Of a DNA stretch of 64,000 nucleotides, positions 8,519 to 57,932 are shown piece after piece. The notes under the pieces are model-generated. The model did no database searches. It saw only the letters and a program-made list of their open reading frames with translations, and had not been told where the DNA came from. Origin of the DNA: Microcoleus sp. (lineage in GTDB: Bacteria; Cyanobacteriota; Cyanobacteriia; Cyanobacteriales; Microcoleaceae); NCBI GenBank assembly GCA_042408215.1, contig JAYFMW010000005.1:288001-352000 (forward strand), in the 5' to 3' direction. Position numbers and translations under genes: made by a program. Position 1 is the stretch's first letter; the number at the start of each line of letters is the position of its first letter.

Positions 8519-10108
8519 CTATCTTCCCCCTTGGAGACTCCCACTGTACCTGTACCCTGGTCAGTGGCGAGAGGAAAAGGGGGGCAAGGTTTATGCTGCA
8601 TACGAATAACCATCCTTTCGGTGAACAACTGAACAATATTTGTGACTAATTCCCGATACCAATTCGGATGCGGAAATATTGAATGAACCACTCGTTCTAA
8701 CGGCAACACGCCCAACGTATTTACCAATTTTTTTGCCGGAGGTTACAATCGCTTTAACGATATCTCCCGTTTGAAAGCCTTTGACAAATTTAAACCTGGG
8801 GACATAGCAAGATGGAAATCCAAACTTGTCAGTGCGGCACATTTGACCTGTCCCATGCCCAGTCGCTTTAATTAACAATGGCTTGTTTGTCACAACTTTC
8901 AGCGACTCAACTTTTCCAACACAGGCTGCATCTAACCAGTGAGTTTTAGCTAAATTCAATCGAGTGCGGTTGAACTTTGTTAGGCCACCACTGCCAGTAT
9001 AAACTGGTAATCCAGTCATGCGGAGTCGATTAAATAATGCCCAACGAGTCGAATTGACTGCTGCTGCATCTTTTAACGGACGATGAGCTTGAGATAGAAT
9101 CCGCTTCAAAATCTCTGGCTTTTTAGAGAGGAATTGCTCAATACTTTGAGTCCCTTTCCGAGTATTACAATTTTCGCAAGCAAGGCAAAGGTTAGAAATG
9201 CGATCGCTGCCACCTTTAGCTTTGGGATGAATATGTTCAATTTGCAAAGGTACATTTTCAACACCGCAATAAGCGCATTTCCTGTCCCATTTGTTCAATA
9301 GATATTCCCGAACTTCGTAGCCAGCTAATTCTCCTTGCTGATATTCAACGCCTGAGATTTCGGGATTTTCTAGTTGTTGTAAGTCAAATCTTACTAATTC
9401 TTGAACAATTGAACCAATGGGTGCGAGTCGGATAAATTTGTTAACCCAACTTAGGGTTGTTTCTACTCGATGTTGTAAGGATGGTGCTAACCAACCCTTT
9501 TGTCGGGTGCGATTGAAAAACCTCGCTTGACGATAACGAGTGTGACGATTTCTCCTACCTCTACGCAATGAACGGCGAGACTCCAAACTGGCTTTAATTG
9601 TTTGACCTCGGTGAGTTAATTCTGCACCAAAAATTACGTCCTCTCCTTGCACTAATGCGATTCCCGTAGTCTTAGAGCCTGGGTCTATTTTAAGAGTGAT
9701 TGATTTTTGGGTTGCTGTCACCTCTACTTTGAGAATTAGCGTGAACGGATACCTTTTGAAAACAGCAGCTTTGCCATTGTTTAGCAATTTACGAGCCAAT
9801 CCCGGTCGGATTGGATTGAGCGGTTGTTTTCTGGTATCAAGTACAAAAACAAAATTAGACATTTCAGTCCTCCCTTGCGGGGTAATGTTTGCTTCGTCAA
9901 TGTTTAAGGTCGGTAACTATATTAAAAGCACTGGCTTAACCCTTACACCTGTTTAACTTTTAATTTCTAGAGCAGAAAACTAGCACGCATTTTCTGGTAG
10001 GTACTTTAACGCTTACCTTAAACGTAGTGGCGAACCACTGAGACTGGTCAACTTTGCTTTTTCAAGCCCCCACTAGATCGGTACTCCGATTAGTGGTGGG
10101 TGGTTGAC
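8519..10108 (-). mobile_element. IscB-encoding IS200/IS605-superfamily element, no tnpA
   Basis: Starts GTCAAC at 10108; ends in a hairpin region followed by ATGA (8518-8515). Confidence 0.8.
8591..9862 (-). CDS. iscB: RNA-guided endonuclease IscB (PLMP, split RuvC, RRXRR helix, HNH)
   Basis: PLNP, IDPGSKTTG, RRSLRRGRR, ELVRFD, CAYC..EHIHPKAKGG..N..CENCN, HWLDAAC; catalytic residues appear intact. Confidence 0.95.
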   Translation of the reverse strand: MSNFVFVLDTRKQPLNPIRPGLARKLLNNGKAAVFKRYPFTLILKVEVTATQKSITLKIDPGSKTTGIALVQGEDVIFGAELTHRGQTIKASLESRRSLRRGRRNRHTRYRQARFFNRTRQKGWLAPSLQHRVETTLSWVNKFIRLAPIGSIVQELVRFDLQQLENPEISGVEYQQGELAGYEVREYLLNKWDRKCAYCGVENVPLQIEHIHPKAKGGSDRISNLCLACENCNTRKGTQSIEQFLSKKPEILKRILSQAHRPLKDAAAVNSTRWALFNRLRMTGLPVYTGSGGLTKFNRTRLNLAKTHWLDAACVGKVESLKVVTNKPLLIKATGHGTGQMCRTDKFGFPSCYVPRFKFVKGFQTGDIVKAIVTSGKKIGKYVGRVAVRTSGSFNISASELVSGISHKYCSVVHRKDGYSYAA

Positions 10109-42931: not shown

Positions 42932-44917
42932 TTTAAGTAAGCCCACCTAAAAACCCATATCCCCGCAGGCTTTAAGAAGTCGGGGATCTAACAGCTATGG
43001 GATTTTACGTTTAATTAGAGCGATCTACTTATCGTAGGATTAATTTGTGGTTGTGAAAGTGTCAGAAAATTAACTTATGTTGAGTGCAGAAAGACTGTCA
43101 GAACAAGGTGTTTTTCCCGGAACGGTTGCGGGGATTTCGGCGGGAATTCCTGACCTCTTGGTTCCCAAGGAAGATCTGTTAAATCAGATGGCTGGAATCA
43201 AAGTCGGAGCCACAATGGCTGCGATAGATGCCAGGGATGATTTGACTCAAAAATCAGATTTTGGGGCTGCTGCGACGGTTGGTTCGATCGCCCTTTCTGA
43301 CAGTTTCTCCGATTTCGGCTTGCTGGTTCTAGGCGGCGACTCTCCTCAATTTGAAAATAGTCTCAAATCCCAGCCAGATATCTCCGGGAAAGTTCAACGA
43401 GACGAACTTACAGGGATGGATTTTGCGGTGGGCGATGGGGTTGGTGAACAATTGCGATCGGCATCCCGAACTGCTTCGCTAATCCCTTCAGAAAATGGGT
43501 CTTTTGATTTTCAAGATTATACCATCGAACACCAAGGTTTAAACACGCTCAACATCAAAGTTGATTACGAATTAAAACCGGGAATCGCCCAAGCAGAATA
43601 TCCCGATACTTGCTGCTATTTTATAAAAGTATAAACAATTTCCTAGTTAACTACCCGAACGAAACAGATTTCTGGGAAATTCTTAACAAAAATCTGACTC
43701 AAAAGGTGCTAGATGAAAATCCAGCACTGACAGATGTTGGCATTCAACTTGAAGTTTTGCCGACGAATCGATTACCTTACGATCGCACGAGCACAGTTTT
43801 CCGCAGCCGAGGGGGTAAATTACAGGAAGATTGGAATTTATCCTTGAACGACTACATCATAAATCACCAAGGATTGAACCAGATAAATCTCGATGTCAAT
43901 TACCAGTACAATCCGGGAATCACCACAGAAGAATATCCCGATACTTGCTGCTATTTTACAAGAGCATTGATAACTTTTTAACCAAATATCCGAAGGAAAC
44001 AGATTCCTGGGAAATTGTCAATAAAAAATTGACCAAAAATATCCTAGATGAAAATCCCGCCTTGGCGGCGATCGACATTAATTTAAGCGTTTTGCCAACC
44101 CCAGGATTGCCCTACAACCGTACCAGTAAAGTGAGCCGCACTCAAGCCAGCAATCCTCAAGGAACTTTTCTTGTCGGGAATACCAGGGGAAATAATGTAC
44201 TGCGATTTGACGGCAAAAATGGCAACTTTTTAGGGGAATTTATAACAGCGGGAAGTGGCGGTTTGTCAAATCCCGATACGATAATTTTCGGCCCAGACGG
44301 TAACGGTGACGGCAAATCCGACATTTACATTGCTAGCGGTGACAAAGCGGGAAATTCCGGCGAAGCCGCAGCATCTGCTGTGTTGCGGTACGACGGCATT
44401 ACAGGAGCATTTATTGACAAGTTTGTCGGCGACAATCCGAACACGGCGATCGATGAAACAGGCGGATTGTTTCGCCCTTATGGTTTAGCTTTTAGCCCGG
44501 ATGGGAATTTGTATGTCAGCAGTTTTTTGACTGACAAAATTCTCCGCTACAATGGCAAAACCGGGCAGTTTATTGATGTATTTGCTTCGGGAAATCAGCA
44601 AGGGGGAGGATTGAATGGGCCGAATGGTTTGTTGTTTGCTCCTGATGGCAATTTGTACGTGACAACGGAGGGGAGTATTGCTCGCGAGGGTCAAGCTGAT
44701 TTCAGCGCAAATTTACCCAGTCAGGTACTACGTTACAACCCGCAAACCAGGGAGTCAAGTATTTTTGCTTCCCCCGATCCTTCGCCTCGGAGTCAGGGTT
44801 TTGCGAGTCTTTTGGGAATGGCGATCGGGCCTGTTGATGGCGACATTTATGTGAGCGATTTTGCTAACGATATCAGGCGTTATAATCTAAAATTTGGGGA
44901 ATTAGTAGAGGTTTTAT

Positions 44918-46465
44918 AAGAAATACCCTGAAAACCCTGTGACTTTAGTCCAGGGATGAAAGGGCGTGGCAGGATAAATCCTGCCTGTTCGTAAGTTTCA
45001 AGATAACATAATGTTTAACCGTCCCCGGACAAATCCTTCTAGCAATTGAGACCAAGGTAAAGATTTGTTGAGGATTAATTAACTTGTTAATTCACGATAT
45101 ATACTAAACCTAGTATCATAACAGCCAGTAAATTAAATGTACGCAGTACAAAAAGATGTTTGGCATTTAAAAGGACTCGACAAAACCATTGTCGAACAAC
45201 TACTAAGATGGTCAAATAATCTGTTCAATGTCGGCACCTATGAAAGTCGGCAACAATACTTTAAGAACCCAAGCGTAGTTAAATATCCAGATTTGTATAA
45301 AATAGCCAAGACCAACGAAAATTACGGGTTGCTATACTCTCAAGTTGCCCAACAATCTCTTAAATCTGTCGCAGAATCTTTTACTTCTTTCCGAGCCTTA
45401 GAGAAGTTGGCAAATCAAGGAGAAATCCATCAAAAACCGAGAATACCAAGGTACAGAACCAAAGGGGGAATGTACCCCGTTTCATATCCCGGTCAAGCAT
45501 TAAAGGTAATTGGAAATAAAGTCAGATTACCCCTGGGGAAAAAAGGAAAAGAATACTTTGGGAAAGATGCGATTTGGGTGCCGCTACCTGAACGTATCAA
45601 GAATTGCCAGATCGAAGAACTCAGGTTAATCCCTAGAAATGGTGAGGTCTGGGTCGAATATGTCCACGAATCCCTGACTGAACAAGCCCCTAGTTGCAGC
45701 TTGGAAGTGACAGGGGTTCTGGGCATCGATCGCGGCATCAATAACTGGTTAACTTGTGTCTCTAGCAATGGTAAACCTTTCATCATTGATGGACTTAGAC
45801 TCAAGTCTTGGAACCAATGGTTTAATAAAGAAAAAGCGAGAGTTCAATCAGAACACGCAATACATAAACTGCCTAAAGGTTTCTCGTCAAAAAGATTGCA
45901 GCAGTTGTCGGAAACTCGCACTAGAAGGATGAGAGATGCTGTCAACAAAGCAGTTAGAACCATCGTAGATTATTGCGAAAATAACCAAATAAACGTCTTA
46001 GTCTTTGGCTGGAACAAGGCACAGAAGCAAGAGGTTAATATGGGGGTCGTAACTAATCAGAATTTTGTCCAAATACCCACAGCTAAAGTCAAAGATAGAC
46101 TCCAGCAAGAATGCGACTTAAGAGGGTGGCGATTTGTTGAACAAGACGAATCTTACACATCAAAAGCAAGTTTTTTAGACCGAGACATTTTGCCAGTAAA
46201 AGTCGGTGAAAAACCTGACAATTGGCAACCATCGGGTAAAAGAATCAAAAGAGGATTGTACTGTTCTAGCGCTGGGTTGTTAATCAATGCAGATGTTAAC
46301 GGTGCAGCCAATATCATTAGAAAGTCAAAAGTAGCCATAGACTCAATTCTTGAGCGAGTGGGTAGGGGGTTTCTGACTAACCCTTTAAGAATTAAACTTT
46401 GGGCGGATTCATCCCCCAAAGTTTGTCCTTAAGAATCCCCGTGTCTTTAGACCGGGGAGTGTCAA
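44918..46465 (+). mobile_element. tnpB-only IS605-family element inserted after TTAT with no target duplication
   Basis: Excision restores GTT TTA T|CT ACT AAT TAT (VLSTNY); right end GAAT-hairpin-TCAA. Confidence 0.95.
45137..46432 (+). CDS. tnpB: TnpB, zinc-finger-less type with displaced RuvC glutamate
   Basis: GIDRG, FGWN, QDESYTSKASFLD, INADVNGA. Confidence 0.92.
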   Translation: MYAVQKDVWHLKGLDKTIVEQLLRWSNNLFNVGTYESRQQYFKNPSVVKYPDLYKIAKTNENYGLLYSQVAQQSLKSVAESFTSFRALEKLANQGEIHQKPRIPRYRTKGGMYPVSYPGQALKVIGNKVRLPLGKKGKEYFGKDAIWVPLPERIKNCQIEELRLIPRNGEVWVEYVHESLTEQAPSCSLEVTGVLGIDRGINNWLTCVSSNGKPFIIDGLRLKSWNQWFNKEKARVQSEHAIHKLPKGFSSKRLQQLSETRTRRMRDAVNKAVRTIVDYCENNQINVLVFGWNKAQKQEVNMGVVTNQNFVQIPTAKVKDRLQQECDLRGWRFVEQDESYTSKASFLDRDILPVKVGEKPDNWQPSGKRIKRGLYCSSAGLLINADVNGAANIIRKSKVAIDSILERVGRGFLTNPLRIKLWADSSPKVCP

Positions 46466-47874
46466 CTACTAATTATACTGAGACTTTACCCAGCAGCAAT
46501 TATCTGGGCGGTTTGGCTTTTTCGCCGATCGGCAATTTGTTTGCAGTTGGCTTCGACAACCGCGCCAATGCTAACGGTGCCGGTGCAGTTTTGCGCTACA
46601 ATGGCAAGACGGGCGACCCGCTGCCATTAGTTGCGAATCCTGGAACATTTCCCAGTCCTATTTTTGTCTCTCCCGACAGCAAGTTACAGCGTCCGATCGC
46701 GATTTCGTTCTTTCCGTCCGATGCTACATTGACCGAAAAGTGGAATTTTCCGATCGCCAATTACCCAATTAATCATCAAGGGTTAAAAAACCTGAATTTA
46801 GATGTAAATTACAAGTATCAAGATGGAATTAAAAATTTCCAGCATCCAGATTTTGTGCCAATTTACAAAACCCTTGACAATCAGTTAGTTAATTCCCAGA
46901 ATGAAACTGATGTTTCGGAAATAGTTAATAAAAAATTGACCCAAAAAGTGATAGAGTCAAGTATCCTAAACTTGACTCTGTGACTGTGAATTTGGATGTT
47001 TTGCCAACCCACCGATTACCTTACAATCGCAACAGTACAGTTACTCGCACTCAAGATGGTAAATTAGGGGAAGCCTGGGATTTCAAGTTGGCTAATTACT
47101 CGATCGATCGTCAGGGTTTGAACAACCTAAATATTGATGTCAAGTATCAGTACAAACCAGGAATTACCCAGGATGAATATCCCGACACTTGACTCTGTTT
47201 TACAAAAGCATTGACAATTTCTTGGCTAATTACCCCAATGAAACGGATGTCTGGGAGGTAGTGAATCAGAATTTGACCCAAAAGGTGCTAGCTGAAAATC
47301 CGGCTTTGGATTCGCTGCAAATTGGCCTTGATCTGTTGCCGACCAATAAATTACCTTACGACAGGGCAAGTATTGTGGCGATCGCTTAGCAACGGATCGG
47401 TGCTACTATATCAAACAGGACAAGGGCCCAATATTTGTTGGGCCTGTTTTTTGGGGTGGTTGTGGCTAGAATCAACTTGTAGGGTGCTCTACTGCATTGT
47501 TGATTTCGATTTCAACAGGTTTGGACGCTCCGGAACACCCTACGCAACCAAGAAGCAGGAAGAAAACACGCCGATCTAGTCGCACGTCCAGATAAGTCGG
47601 GCTTTCTCTGAGCTGAGGTAAGTTTTTTAGAGTGGCGGAGGCAAAAGTGTATCTTTGGATAGATGTTTATTATACCAAAAAATATTTTATCCAGAGATGT
47701 ACACTGGCGATCGACTAGCAAATTGTGGCCGCAGGTAAAGCAGGCCACGAGACAAATTTTCACTTGTTTGTTGATGAACGATCAAAATTTAAGAAATAAT
47801 GGAAGTATTAGAGCTCGTTTGAATAACAGAACGCTTCCTCCTCCTATTTAAGTCAAAATATTTAAGTCAAAGGA

Positions 47875-56388: not shown

Positions 56389-56660
56389 GCTTGTCAAGGA
56401 AGCCGCTGCGGATCGAGGGCAATATGTCCCTCGTCGCCAGAGTCAACCAGCAACGCGGGCTGGGTGCAAATTGCTTCTGTTCAAGACTTCAAGCCTTTTT
56501 GTACATTGTTGGCTAAATAAGTGCGCCAAACCCGCACCAGGGGGGTCAGAACTAAATTTAGTGGTTAATCCGATCGATCGACAGCAAGTCGATCGTTGGC
56601 TTACCAAAAATCTCATGGTTCAAGCCGCTCTGCGGGTGTTAAACAATAGATGTTTTTCAC

Positions 56661-57032
56661 CTAAAAAATGGGCGGAGCGAAGCGCAGGGGCCCAAGCCCC
56701 GTCCTTCTAGGACGGCTTTGTTAGAATTTAGAAAGGCAAGAAAGGCAAGTAAGAACAACCATCTACGTGTTGAAACAATTTCATAAGGTGAGACTCCTGG
56801 GTTGGATCGCTACTCGGCAATGCCGAGCCTGTCCAAACAAGCAATAGTGAATTGTTGAGCGTACCTAACTGGCTGATTGATGGACTCAGAAAGCAATCTA
56901 AAAACAAAAGTAAGCGCAATTGCAATACTTCTCGTACCAGTAGTTGTTTTGAGCGTGTAGAGGCGATTTGACAGCGCCTTTAAGACTCAAGTCTTAAGAA
57001 TCTCCGTGGCGTTGATTCCCGGAGAGTGTCAA
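56661..57032 (+). mobile_element. ORF-less IS200/IS605 element with putative structured RNA (copy A)
   Basis: TCAC flank, CCCCGTCCTTCTAGGACGG left end, TGTTAGAAT -10, GAAT-hairpin-TCAA right end. Confidence 0.85.
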
Positions 57033-57136
57033 AGGGTTCTACGGTTGGTATAGAGGAAGTCGCAGTCGAATGGGAAGAGTCAGGTGAGTTGAGTTCGATC
57101 GCACTCATAGTTCAACAAAAGTCTAGGCGCTTTCAC

Positions 57137-57546
57137 CGAAAGACGAGCGGGAAGCCCCGCCTTTCAAGGCTGGGGAGGAACGCGGTTGCGACTTATTTAG
57201 TCACCTAAAAACTATGGCACGGCTTAAGGCAAAGCGGTATACTAATTACAGCGATTAAGAATAACCATCTACGTGTTGAAGCATTTTAGTCTCGGTGAGA
57301 TTCCGGCACAGTAAGCAACTACTGCTTTTGAGCAGGAAGCCTATTTAACTGACAAGAAATATCAAAATGTGGAACGTACCTATCTCAGGCTAAGTGATGG
57401 ACTCCGAAAGCATAAAAAAGCTAAAAGTATACGCAAGGTTTGGATTTGTCTAAGCTAAGTGGGTAGAGGTGCCTTGATAACGCCTTTGAAAGTCCCTTTG
57501 TGGTCTTAATCAAGAATCCCCCCGATTCATCGGTGGGGAGTGTCAA
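57137..57546 (+). mobile_element. ORF-less IS200/IS605 element with putative structured RNA (copy B, diverged)
   Basis: TCAC target, GAAG-CCCC..GGGG left end, TGGCAC-N17-TATACT, GAAT-hairpin-TCAA right end. Confidence 0.85.
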
Positions 57547-57827
57547 TCTTACTTACTTTCTCTCGAAACCAGCCCTCAACCACCACTTCGCGGAGTTATC
57601 AGTTCGTAGTATTGAGTTGTGTGTTAAGAAATTGGTACGGTGCCACTGAATTGATGCGCTGAGTTCAAATTAAGAGTTACAAGTGTTGATTTTTGAGTAT
57701 TGAGTTCGCAATTCTCCACTCAAAAATCGAGATTACTAACTCGATAAAAGCATCCTCATTTCTATCTCCCAGATTAAGCTGCGGGGTCGAAATCATAACT
57801 CTGTACGAGCGGGTTTAACCACATCTG

Positions 57828-57932
57828 TAACAGTTAACAGTCAACAGTTAACAGTTAACAGTCAACAGTTAACAGTTAACAGTTAACAGTTAACAGTTAA
57901 CAGTTAACAATCAACAGTCAACAATCAACAGT
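57828..57932. repeat. (AACAGTT/AACAGTC)n STRR tract
   Basis: About 14 heptamers. Confidence 0.9.

What the first reader, a model, noticed from the sequence alone, without database searches (positions are those of the whole stretch)
56661..57546. Two diverged protein-free IS605 elements share a conserved ~290-nt RNA whose 5' domain stands where tnpB would be
Seen: both elements have IS200/IS605 ends, a -10 box and no ORF. Their left-end hairpins are of different types, yet they share ordered blocks: TAAGAAYAACCATCTACGTGTTGAA (56750, 57256), GGTGAGAYTCC, CGTACCTA, TGATGGACTCMGAAAGCA, AAAAGTA..CGCAA, GTAGAGG..TTGA...CGCCTTT and TCTTAA. Variable hairpins lie between the blocks. CCATC/GATGG, TACG/CGTA and 5' TAAGA/3' TCTTA can pair. 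The last ~90 nt resemble the 3' end of the tnpB element at ~46350-46465. Known: TnpB omegaRNAs are encoded at the right end and take their guide from the 3' flank. Inference: these are not simple deletion derivatives but RNA-only elements with a selected ~200-nt extra RNA domain of unknown function, fused to a trans-acting TnpB scaffold (guides start AGGGTTCTACGG and TCTTACTTACTT).
Basis: partly seen in the sequence, partly recalled or inferred. Interest (0 to 1): 0.88.

Follow-up and report, generated by a model that had tools for sequence, protein, structure and literature searches.

The report
Guide-RNA-only transposons with extra RNA domain
Two small protein-free mobile elements each carry a gene for a long guide RNA whose rear half is the usual scaffold for a TnpB nuclease and whose front half is a conserved, folded RNA domain of unknown role, found only in such protein-free elements of filamentous cyanobacteria.

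Summary
Element A (56661-57032) and element B (57137-57546) are separate IS200/IS605-type insertions behind a TCAC motif. A close relative has both sites empty. Neither holds a gene.

Each carries a ~290-nt RNA gene. The last ~125 nt, from AAAGTA to TCAA, match the right ends of tnpB elements, so this part is a TnpB omegaRNA scaffold. The first ~165 nt form a junction of helices with strong covariation: 93.5% of cells paired, 16 of 23 pairs changed on both sides, 0 of 500 shuffles as good.

The genome holds 22 full copies. The 5' domain was found in 14 of 151 sampled cyanobacterial genomes, all of one order. No fetched locus had it joined to tnpB. It is better conserved than the scaffold, matches no Rfam family, and was not detected in tnpB coding sequence by covariance model, HMM or tblastn. 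One tnpB lineage has a short similar patch.

Standalone omegaRNAs and long omegaRNAs are already published. The new part is this conserved 5' domain. Its function and expression were not tested. The likely partner nuclease is the TCAC-type clade, not the 45137 TnpB.

The parts
56657..56660 (+). TCAC target / transposon-adjacent motif in front of element A
   Evidence: The empty site in L209 reads TTTTTCAC|AGGGTTC. The same TCAC precedes the other A-type copies (by eye).
56661..57032 (+). Element A, a protein-free IS200/IS605-type element of 372 nt
   Evidence: Boundaries come from the empty site. No ORF of 80 aa or more. Six further A-type copies lie in the genome.
56699..56715 (+). Left-end subterminal hairpin of A (CCGTCC TTCTA GGACGG)
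56723..56728 (+). -10-like box TAGAAT of A. A 10-nt duplication in the leader puts it 10 nt further upstream than in sister copies.
   Evidence: A TANNNT box lies at -17/-18 in 47 of 69 distinct family upstream regions.
56745..56912 (+). 5' domain of the RNA of A. Helices P0, P1, P2 and P3 enclose a small GG..CC hairpin with a conserved loop and a variable hairpin.
   Evidence: Model R2 scores 170.9 bits, E 4e-34. Covariation.
56907..57032 (+). 3' omegaRNA-type scaffold of A, from AAAGTA to TCAA, including the right-end hairpin at 57002-57026
   Evidence: The nhmmer family model aligns positions ~147-289 to tnpB right ends, E 1e-10 to 1e-14. Helices covary.
57033..57052 (+). Predicted guide of A (AGGGTTCTACGG...), taken from the right flank
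   Evidence: Position next to the right end. Its 12-nt seed is unique in the genome. Guide use is inferred.
57133..57136 (+). TCAC motif in front of element B
   Evidence: The relative L209 has TCAA here. The tnpB element at C14 has the same ..CTCAC|CGAAAGACG junction.
57137..57546 (+). Element B, a protein-free IS200/IS605-type element of 410 nt
   Evidence: Empty site. Its left end is homologous to that of the C14 tnpB element. Its last 125 nt are 84-87% identical to the right ends of the C14 and C8 elements.
57155..57175 (+). Left-end hairpin of B (CCCCGCCTT TCA AGGCTGGGG), similar to its right-end hairpin
   Evidence: by eye.
57238..57243 (+). -10 box TATACT of B
57251..57429 (+). 5' domain of the RNA of B
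   Evidence: Model R2 scores 148.5 bits, E 2e-29.
57424..57546 (+). 3' omegaRNA-type scaffold of B, with the right-end hairpin at 57518-57540
   Evidence: tblastn finds residues 396-416 of the C14 TnpB at 81% identity inside it.
57547..57566 (+). Predicted guide of B (TCTTACTTACTT...)
44918..46465 (+). It is a different family and unlikely to be the partner.

Best explanation
A and B are two independent insertions of non-autonomous, protein-free IS200/IS605 elements (PATE-like). Each is a mobile RNA gene made of a left end, a -10 promoter, a ~290-nt RNA and a right end.

The last ~125 nt of the RNA are a TnpB omegaRNA scaffold of the 'derived' NADxN / TCAC-TAM clade. Transcription runs on into the right flank, so that flank supplies the guide. 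A TnpB made by another element would use this RNA to cut the empty TCAC+flank site after TnpA excises the element. Repair from the sister copy then restores it. TnpA is also supplied in trans.

The first ~165 nt are a separately folding junction domain that occupies the place of tnpB. It is specific to this RNA-only lineage and is under stronger constraint than the scaffold. Most likely it is a structured leader that makes a stand-alone transcript usable as an omegaRNA precursor. It could do so by protecting the 5' end, helping the scaffold fold or be presented, or controlling maturation by TnpB's own 5' processing.

Shown here: anatomy, mobility, homology of the scaffold, and covariation and distribution of the 5' domain. 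Inferred: transcription, use by TnpB, and the role of the 5' domain.
For: Mobility and ends:
- Both sites are empty in a close relative, each after TCAC and without duplication.
- The genome has 22 full copies with 22 different right flanks.
- 21 of 22 lie outside ORFs of 100 aa or more.
- The genome has 20 Y1 TnpA matches, 19 above the Pfam cut-off. Several sit beside TnpB genes of the partner clade.

Scaffold:
- B's last 125 nt are 84-87% identical to the right ends of the tnpB elements at C14 and C8. Its left end matches the C14 element's.
- The family HMM aligns positions ~147-289 to many tnpB right ends.
- Residues 383-416 of TnpB are still readable in the scaffold.
- The right-end hairpin lies within 10 nt of the end and covaries, as Nety et al. 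describe for omegaRNAs (PMC10278001, Results read).
- AmaTnpB of the NADxN clade uses TAM TCAC and a 106-nt scaffold (same paper).

5' domain:
- 45 sequences from several families give 93.5% paired cells, 16 of 23 pairs with changes on both sides, 0 of 500 shuffles as good, and 27-46% paired in slid controls. Searches agree.
- Mean pairwise identity is 70-71% in its core blocks against 55% in the scaffold.
- It is present with the scaffold, and without tnpB, in 28 of 30 same-genus loci, 30 named cyanobacterial loci and 17 of 19 loci from the phylum sample.

Promoter and guides:
- The -10 box is fixed in position.
- No second genomic copy of any guide seed follows that copy's own TAM; one A-type seed recurs after ATCAT, the C/D-type motif.
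- 4 of 5 other genomes with the RNA have an intact TnpB of the partner clade at 51-68% identity.

Published background:
- Standalone omegaRNAs act in trans (PMC10691335, passages).
- PATEs often encode omegaRNAs (preprint 10.1101/2023.03.14.532601, passages).
Against: - There is no expression evidence. 
- Single-sequence folding is no more stable than shuffles (z -0.28 and -0.73), and the minimum-energy folds only partly match the covariation structure.
- The promoter scan finds no more sites than shuffles do.
- One genome with the RNA (G102) showed no partner-clade TnpB with the query used.
- A-type scaffolds have no closely matching tnpB right end in this genome by blastn, so their partner is inferred only from HMM-level similarity and the shared TCAC.
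- The leader role of the 5' domain rests on no direct evidence.
Confidence: 0.6

Rival explanations
1. The elements are ordinary deletion derivatives. The whole ~290 nt would be the normal long omegaRNA of this TnpB clade. In full elements its 5' part would overlap the last ~110 codons of tnpB, from the RuvC-II ESYTSK motif onward. In RNA-only copies it would simply have drifted once freed of coding constraint.
For: - The full-length family HMM aligns into the tnpB ORF up to model positions 64-103 in the T1-like lineage.
- That lineage's window scores z 5.5 above shuffles, 36.2 against a maximum of 29.7.
- The block order is collinear by eye.
- RNAalifold on 35 tnpB 3' regions predicts a P3-like helix enclosing a GGUGAAAAACC hairpin that resembles the domain's GGUGARAYUCC hairpin. 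One pair there switches G-C to U-A.
- Processed omegaRNAs of 79-466 nt are known, and an mRNA region next to RuvC-II affects the RNP (PMC10278001).
Against: - The 5'-domain covariance model finds nothing significant in 10 tnpB elements plus the window. The best hit has E 0.2 and covers only AAAUCAAAAGUA.
- The 5'-domain HMM finds no tnpB hit at E<10 in the genome. Its best E is 6.7 against 74 tnpB elements.
- tblastn of TnpB C-termini against the domain finds nothing below E 0.07.
- 13 of 14 lineages score no better than their controls.
- The 32 short derivatives of the 45137-type family keep only the part from AAAGTA on.
- The domain is more conserved than the scaffold, which is the opposite of drift.
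- The one similar lineage is a young branch, 87% identical to the 45137 TnpB, so the patch may be chance or gene conversion.
Confidence: 0.15
2. The 5' domain is a functional RNA in its own right, such as a self-cleaving or ligand- or protein-binding RNA, or a regulator or decoy of TnpB. It would use an IS605 shell and an omegaRNA tail only to spread and be retained.
For: - Many unpaired positions are highly conserved (CGUACC, GAUGGACUC.GAAAGC, GUGUUGAA), and there is a multi-helix junction with a GNRA-like loop.
- The domain is combined with different scaffolds, left ends and TAMs: TCAC, TTAC and TCAT.
- It is never found with tnpB.
- One genome has the RNA but no partner-clade TnpB was found with the query used.
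- IStrons are a precedent for a catalytic RNA placed 5' of an omegaRNA scaffold in IS605/IS607 elements (preprint 10.1101/2023.11.20.567912, passages).
Against: - No Rfam ribozyme, intron or riboswitch matches, even at E up to 5-10, in the window or in 15 family members.
- The domain never occurs without the scaffold, except in copies cut by contig ends or diverged.
- The copies are intergenic with no orientation bias toward genes.
- Nothing here points to a ligand or a cleavage site.
Confidence: 0.2
3. The shared blocks are inert remains of a common ancestor element with no present function.
For: Repeated elements share sequence by descent, and related sequences can beat shuffles without selection. 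The counting tool itself carries this caveat.
Against: - Compensatory changes occur in 16 of 23 pairs across several families, and slid controls fall to 27-46% paired.
- The variable hairpin region is only 40% identical while the flanking cores hold 70%.
- The domain persists across an order of cyanobacteria.
Confidence: 0.03

Closest known systems
Standalone omegaRNAs / PATE-like protein-free IS200/IS605 elements that encode omegaRNAs used in trans (Altae-Tran 2021 as cited in PMC10691335; Meers et al. preprint 10.1101/2023.03.14.532601)
   Same: Protein-free, with left and right ends carrying subterminal hairpins. Inserts after a 4-nt motif. The omegaRNA scaffold sits at the right end and the guide comes from the flank. 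The elements are multicopy in genomes that also hold tnpB and tnpA.
   Different: These copies carry their own position-fixed -10 box and a conserved, covarying ~165-nt domain 5' of the scaffold. That domain was not found in the tnpB elements of the same genome. The passages I read mention no such domain. I did not see those papers' supplements.
TnpB omegaRNA of the 'derived' (RuvC-III NADxN) clade, e.g. AmaTnpB with TAM TCAC and a 106-nt processed scaffold (Nety et al. 2023, PMC10278001)
   Same: TAM is TCAC. The scaffold is ~125 nt with a 3' hairpin within 10 nt of the guide plus upstream stem-loops. The candidate partner TnpBs have NADCNGAAN.
   Different: The scaffold is not encoded over a tnpB 3' end. 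It is preceded by an unrelated structured domain instead of coding sequence.
IStrons (group I intron fused to IS605/IS607 with an omegaRNA scaffold at the 3' end) and their ORF-less PATE form (preprint 10.1101/2023.11.20.567912)
   Same: The layout is left end, large structured RNA, omegaRNA scaffold, right end. Protein-free versions exist.
   Different: There is no group I intron match in Rfam. The RNA has its own promoter inside the element, so the left end is not in the RNA. The copies are intergenic. Splicing is therefore not indicated.
HEARO / IscB omegaRNA protein-free elements (Rfam RF02033), also in this window at 9882-10108 (-)
   Same: Guide-RNA-only IS200/IS605 relatives that are abundant in the same genome.
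   Different: They have a different RNA family, carry the guide at the 5' end and work with a different nuclease. There is no sequence or Rfam similarity.

Membership tests
IS200/IS605 non-autonomous (PATE-like) element | Precise insertion 3' of a short specific motif, without target-site duplication or terminal inverted repeats | tested here: met
   Empty sites TTTTTCAC|AGGGTTC and GCTTTCA(A/C)|TCTTACTT in L209. TCAC, TTAC or TCAT lies in front of the other copies (by eye).
IS200/IS605 non-autonomous (PATE-like) element | Subterminal hairpins at the left and right ends that resemble each other | tested here: met
   A: 56699-56715 and 57002-57026. B: 57155-57175 and 57518-57540. The right-end hairpin covaries.
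IS200/IS605 non-autonomous (PATE-like) element | No transposase or nuclease gene inside, with Y1 TnpA available elsewhere in the genome | tested here: met
   No ORF of 80 aa or more. No tnpB within 2 kb of 21 of 22 copies. 19 PF01797 matches above the cut-off.
IS200/IS605 non-autonomous (PATE-like) element | Excision and integration by TnpA | not testable with these tools
   Only indirect evidence: presence/absence polymorphism between relatives.
TnpB omegaRNA | Scaffold homologous to the 3' end of a tnpB element and ending at the right-end boundary | tested here: met
   blastn 84-87% over 125 nt to the C14 and C8 elements. nhmmer E 1e-10 to 1e-14 to many right ends. tblastn finds TnpB residues 383-416 in the scaffold.
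TnpB omegaRNA | Conserved stem-loop within ~10 nt of the guide | tested here: met
   Helix at columns 351-360/369-376 of A4: 6 of 8 pairs changed on both sides.
TnpB omegaRNA | Transcribed, bound by TnpB, and guides TAM-dependent DNA cleavage | not testable with these tools
TnpB omegaRNA | The whole RNA, including the 5' ~165 nt, corresponds to sequence of tnpB-bearing elements | tested here: not met
   Model R2, the 5'-domain HMM and tblastn all give no significant hit in tnpB elements. 1 of 14 lineages shows a local patch.
IStron / group I intron | Group I intron core detectable by the Rfam model | tested here: not met
   No Intron_gpI hit at E up to 10 in the window region or at E up to 5 in 15 family members.
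Any described RNA family (Rfam 15) | Match of the 5' domain at or near a gathering score | tested here: not met
   There are only weak HgcC (RF00062) hits, E 0.19 and 3, on the 3' scaffold of two members.

The most novel reading that the evidence does not exclude
The ~165-nt 5' domain is a new class of structured RNA that lets a guide-RNA gene live as an independent, long-lived selfish lineage. It would replace what tnpB mRNA does in cis, for example by self-processing, recruiting or regulating TnpB, or sensing a signal. It would be shuffled among different IS605 shells and TAM types across Cyanobacteriales while exploiting TnpA and TnpB made by other elements.
Probability: 0.3. Interest if true: 0.8.

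Novelty: new variant of a known kind. Interest (0 to 1): 0.6.

Why it matters
The literature I read states that the role of standalone omegaRNAs is unknown (PMC10691335). Here a whole lineage of them carries an extra RNA domain that is more conserved than the nuclease-binding scaffold. That makes a concrete question testable: what does a guide RNA need in order to work, or to persist, without its nuclease gene in cis?

If the domain stabilises the omegaRNA, loads it or gates its maturation, it could also serve as a natural add-on for TnpB guide RNAs supplied in trans. If it is only the clade's normal long omegaRNA, the finding becomes a well-mapped example of a known kind.

Tried and rejected
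- **Rfam.** The gathering scan of the window found only HEARO at 9882-10108. Permissive scans of the region and of 15 family members found nothing relevant.
- **Default model R1.** The default RNAalifold model kept only 7 pairs. I replaced it with a manual structure (R2).
- **Mutual information over all column pairs** (44 sequences). It recovered the known helices but no convincing pairing between the 5' domain and the scaffold. Subfamily structure makes it noisy.
- **tnpB mRNA helices.** Base-pairing seen by eye between the ESYT and GLY codons of tnpB came out in different registers in different lineages. RNAalifold instead pairs the GLY codons with the NGAAN codons. I do not use it as evidence.
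- **Nezha MITEs.** I recalled these cyanobacterial MITEs as IS605-derived. The review passages describe terminal inverted repeats and direct repeats (PMC3184786), so they are not related.
- **Pro-Fanzor IS607 TnpBs of cyanobacteria** (PMC10711439). They belong to a different transposon family.
- **Truncated tnpB hits in G135**. They lie at contig ends, so they are an assembly effect and not short derivatives.
- **Sequencing runs.** 20 runs hold half or more of the sampled words, 14 of them labelled RNA.
- **Orientation or start-codon docking** like the HEARO elements noted earlier in this genome. No such bias appears in the 22 copies.
- **Literature.** Searches returned no listing that mentions this domain; I read only listings and selected passages, so this does not show it is unpublished. 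The library lacks most subscription journals, and I saw no supplements.
Full report
**What is there.** The region 56661-57546 holds two elements in tandem on the + strand, separated by 104 nt of ordinary DNA. No ORF of 80 aa or more overlaps them.

Their ends can be fixed exactly. In a same-genus genome (locus L209, flanks 86-98% identical) the left flank, the spacer and the right flank are contiguous. That locus reads ..TTTTTCAC|AGGGTTC.. and ..GCTTTCAA|TCTTACTT... Element A is therefore 56661-57032 and element B is 57137-57546. Each sits behind TCAC, has no target duplication and ends in ..GAGTGTCAA. This is the IS200/IS605 mode of insertion. The two are independent and fairly recent insertions.

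**Family.** A profile built from the copies finds 22 full-length and 3 5'-truncated copies in the 7.36-Mb genome. By eye they fall into subfamilies: A (7), B (5), C (5), D (4) and X4 (1). The subfamilies have different left ends and different target motifs, TCAC, TTAC and TCAT.
- None has a tnpB within 2 kb, except one copy with an unrelated complete tnpB element about 1.1 kb downstream.
- 21 of 22 lie outside ORFs of 100 aa or more, with no bias toward gene starts.
- All 22 right flanks differ. No second genomic copy of a 12-nt flank seed follows that copy's own target motif; one A-type seed recurs after ATCAT, the C/D-type motif.

**The 3' half is a TnpB omegaRNA scaffold.** From an invariant AAAGTA to the TCAA end (~125 nt) the RNA is homologous to the right ends of tnpB elements.
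- B's last 125 nt are 84-87% identical to those of the tnpB elements at G000:C14:67627-68914 and C8:27553-28839.
- The family profile aligns positions ~147-289 to dozens of tnpB right ends at E 1e-10 to 1e-14.
- tblastn still reads TnpB residues 383-416 in the scaffold.
- B also shares its left end and the ..TCAC|CGAAAGACG junction with the C14 element.
- The TnpBs concerned are OrfB_IS605 plus TNB-domain proteins with a NADCNGAAN RuvC-III motif. This is the 'derived' clade of Nety et al., whose AmaTnpB uses TAM TCAC and a 106-nt scaffold (PMC10278001, Results read).
- The scaffold helices covary, including the right-end hairpin within 10 nt of the end.

It inserts after TTAT and has an extra hairpin. 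Its 32 short derivatives keep only the part from AAAGTA on. It is an unlikely partner.

**The 5' half is a distinct, selected RNA domain.** On 33 sequences of the genus, a manual structure of 23 pairs (P0, P1 CCAUC/GAUGG, P2 UACGU/GCGUA, P3, and a small CC/GG hairpin) gave:
- 94.9% of cells paired,
- 11 pairs changed on both sides,
- 0 of 500 shuffles as good,
- 21-42% paired when the partner is slid.

On 45 sequences that include other families, aligned by the model, the figures are 93.5%, 16 of 23 pairs, 0 of 500, and 27-46%. That alignment leans toward the model's structure.

P3 carries most of the compensatory changes. A variable hairpin sits between conserved cores. Core identity is 70-71%, against 40% in the variable part and 55% in the scaffold.

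A TANNNT box starts 17-18 nt before TAAGAA in 47 of 69 distinct upstream regions. It falls within -24 to -15 in 54 of 69, against 2 and 9 of 69 in control windows. The RNA should therefore start about 5 nt before TAAGAA, inside the element and downstream of the left-end hairpins. Element A is an exception, because a 10-nt duplication moves its box upstream.

**Where else it occurs.**
- blastn with the 5' domain found it in 28 of 48 other genomes of the genus and in 0 of 32 genomes from other families of the order.
- The covariance model found it in 14 of 151 genomes sampled across the phylum: family f1 5 of 5, f12 2 of 3, f7 6 of 17, and none in the other orders sampled.
- A 15-mer scan of public genomes plus the profile found it in named Microcoleus, Tychonema, Dolichospermum, Nostoc, Acaryochloridaceae and Synechococcales-labelled records. 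That was 37 of 119 loci.
- The full RNA is present without tnpB in 28 of 30 genus loci, 30 named loci and 17 of 19 phylum loci. Upstream ORFs are unrelated host genes.

**Is the 5' domain just the tnpB-embedded part of a long omegaRNA?** This was the main open question, and the evidence is mostly negative.
- The 5'-domain model R2, run with filters off on the window and 10 tnpB elements, gave no significant hit. The best had E 0.2 and covered only the A-rich run before AAAGUA.
- A 5'-domain HMM found no tnpB at E<10 in the genome. Its best E was 6.7 against 74 tnpB elements.
- tblastn of eight TnpB C-termini against the domains found nothing below E 0.07.
- In a local-alignment test against shuffles and other tnpB windows, 13 of 14 lineages were at control level.

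On the other side:
- One lineage (G000:C30:668876-670204 and kin) has a ~35-nt patch at the collinear place, with z 5.5.
- RNAalifold on 35 tnpB 3' regions predicts a P3-like helix around a GGUGAAAAACC hairpin that looks like the domain's GG-UGARAYU-CC hairpin.
- Processed omegaRNAs of up to 466 nt are known.

I therefore keep an old origin from tnpB as possible. The domain as it exists today is specific to RNA-only elements.

**What it is not.** No Rfam family matches, whether ribozyme, intron or riboswitch. Two members give weak HgcC hits on the scaffold. From memory only, HgcC is an RNA linked to the 3' end of tnpB. The proposed 5' TAAGA / 3' TCTTA closing helix fails on the family. Single-sequence folding energies are ordinary, z -0.28 and -0.73.

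**Mechanism proposed.** TnpA genes are plentiful: 19 matches above the cut-off, several beside TCAC-clade tnpB genes. The elements can therefore be moved in trans.

Their RNA would serve as a trans omegaRNA. After excision, TnpB loaded with it cuts TCAC plus flank. Repair from the sister copy then restores the element. This follows the model of Meers et al. (preprint, passages read). Standalone omegaRNAs are reported to work in trans (PMC10691335, passage).

Since TnpB trims omegaRNA 5' ends itself, the 5' domain is most simply a structured leader. It would replace the tnpB mRNA context and be either removed or kept on loading. This step is inference.

4 of 5 other genomes with the RNA have an intact partner-clade TnpB. 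In one genome none was found with that query.

**Limits.**
- There is no expression data.
- Relatives are not independent, so the shuffle counts overstate significance.
- TAMs of copies other than A and B were read by eye.
- Subfamily labels are mine.
- I did not see the supplements of the cited papers, which may list cyanobacterial omegaRNAs.

Noticed in passing
window 9882-10108 (-): HEARO (IscB omegaRNA) match at 139.5 bits, the only Rfam hit at gathering score in the window.
   Followed up: no
window ~57825-57900: Tandem 7-nt repeats (GTTAACT/GTTGACT) give chance miRNA-like Rfam hits. The read-laying filter tripped on part of this stretch.
   Followed up: no
L210 and L214, just after the homologue of window 56660: In other same-genus genomes a different insertion of roughly 420-560 nt sits at the same spot, after TTTTGAC/TTTTGGC, and starts GGGTCAAAAAACGGAGATAAGCCCCCGAC. 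The site looks like an insertion hot spot.
   Followed up: partly
window 56729-56749: The leader of element A has a 10-nt tandem duplication (GAAAGGCAAG twice) that moves its -10 box from the usual -17/-18 to -27.
   Followed up: partly
window 57197-57227: The left end of element B contains a stretch resembling the start of an A-type left end (TCACCTAAAAACTATGG..ACGGCTT). It may be a remnant of an older nested insertion or of recombination (by eye).
   Followed up: no
G000:C30:669986-670204 and kin (L074, L075, L077): One tnpB lineage carries, inside its ORF, a ~35-nt patch (GTACCGTTCGGCTCAGGGATTAACTCTGAATGCA) similar to the conserved 3' block of the 5' domain. Its close relative at 45137 lacks it. 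It could be chance, an ancestral trait or gene conversion.
   Followed up: partly
G000, 32 places (e.g. C28:106164-106302): Short protein-free derivatives of the 45137-type element keep its left end and only the last ~140 nt from AAAGTA on. They insert after TTAT.
   Followed up: partly
window 43831-44919 and 46399-46983: The tnpB element 44918-46465 appears to split a repeat-protein ORF. One ORF ends at the left end and another resumes after the right end.
   Followed up: no
G000:C30:486826-487335 (copy A5): The left end of this copy is interrupted by ~150 nt that carries AATCTAAAATC-type short repeats and two hairpins.
   Followed up: no
L232:2103-2351: In a genome of another family, a HEARO RNA (122.9 bits) lies about 300 nt downstream of a member of this RNA family.
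   Followed up: no
A4 rows r54-r58, r65, r71: Mosaic copies combine an A-like 5' domain with a B-type scaffold, or the reverse. This suggests recombination between subfamilies (by eye).
   Followed up: no
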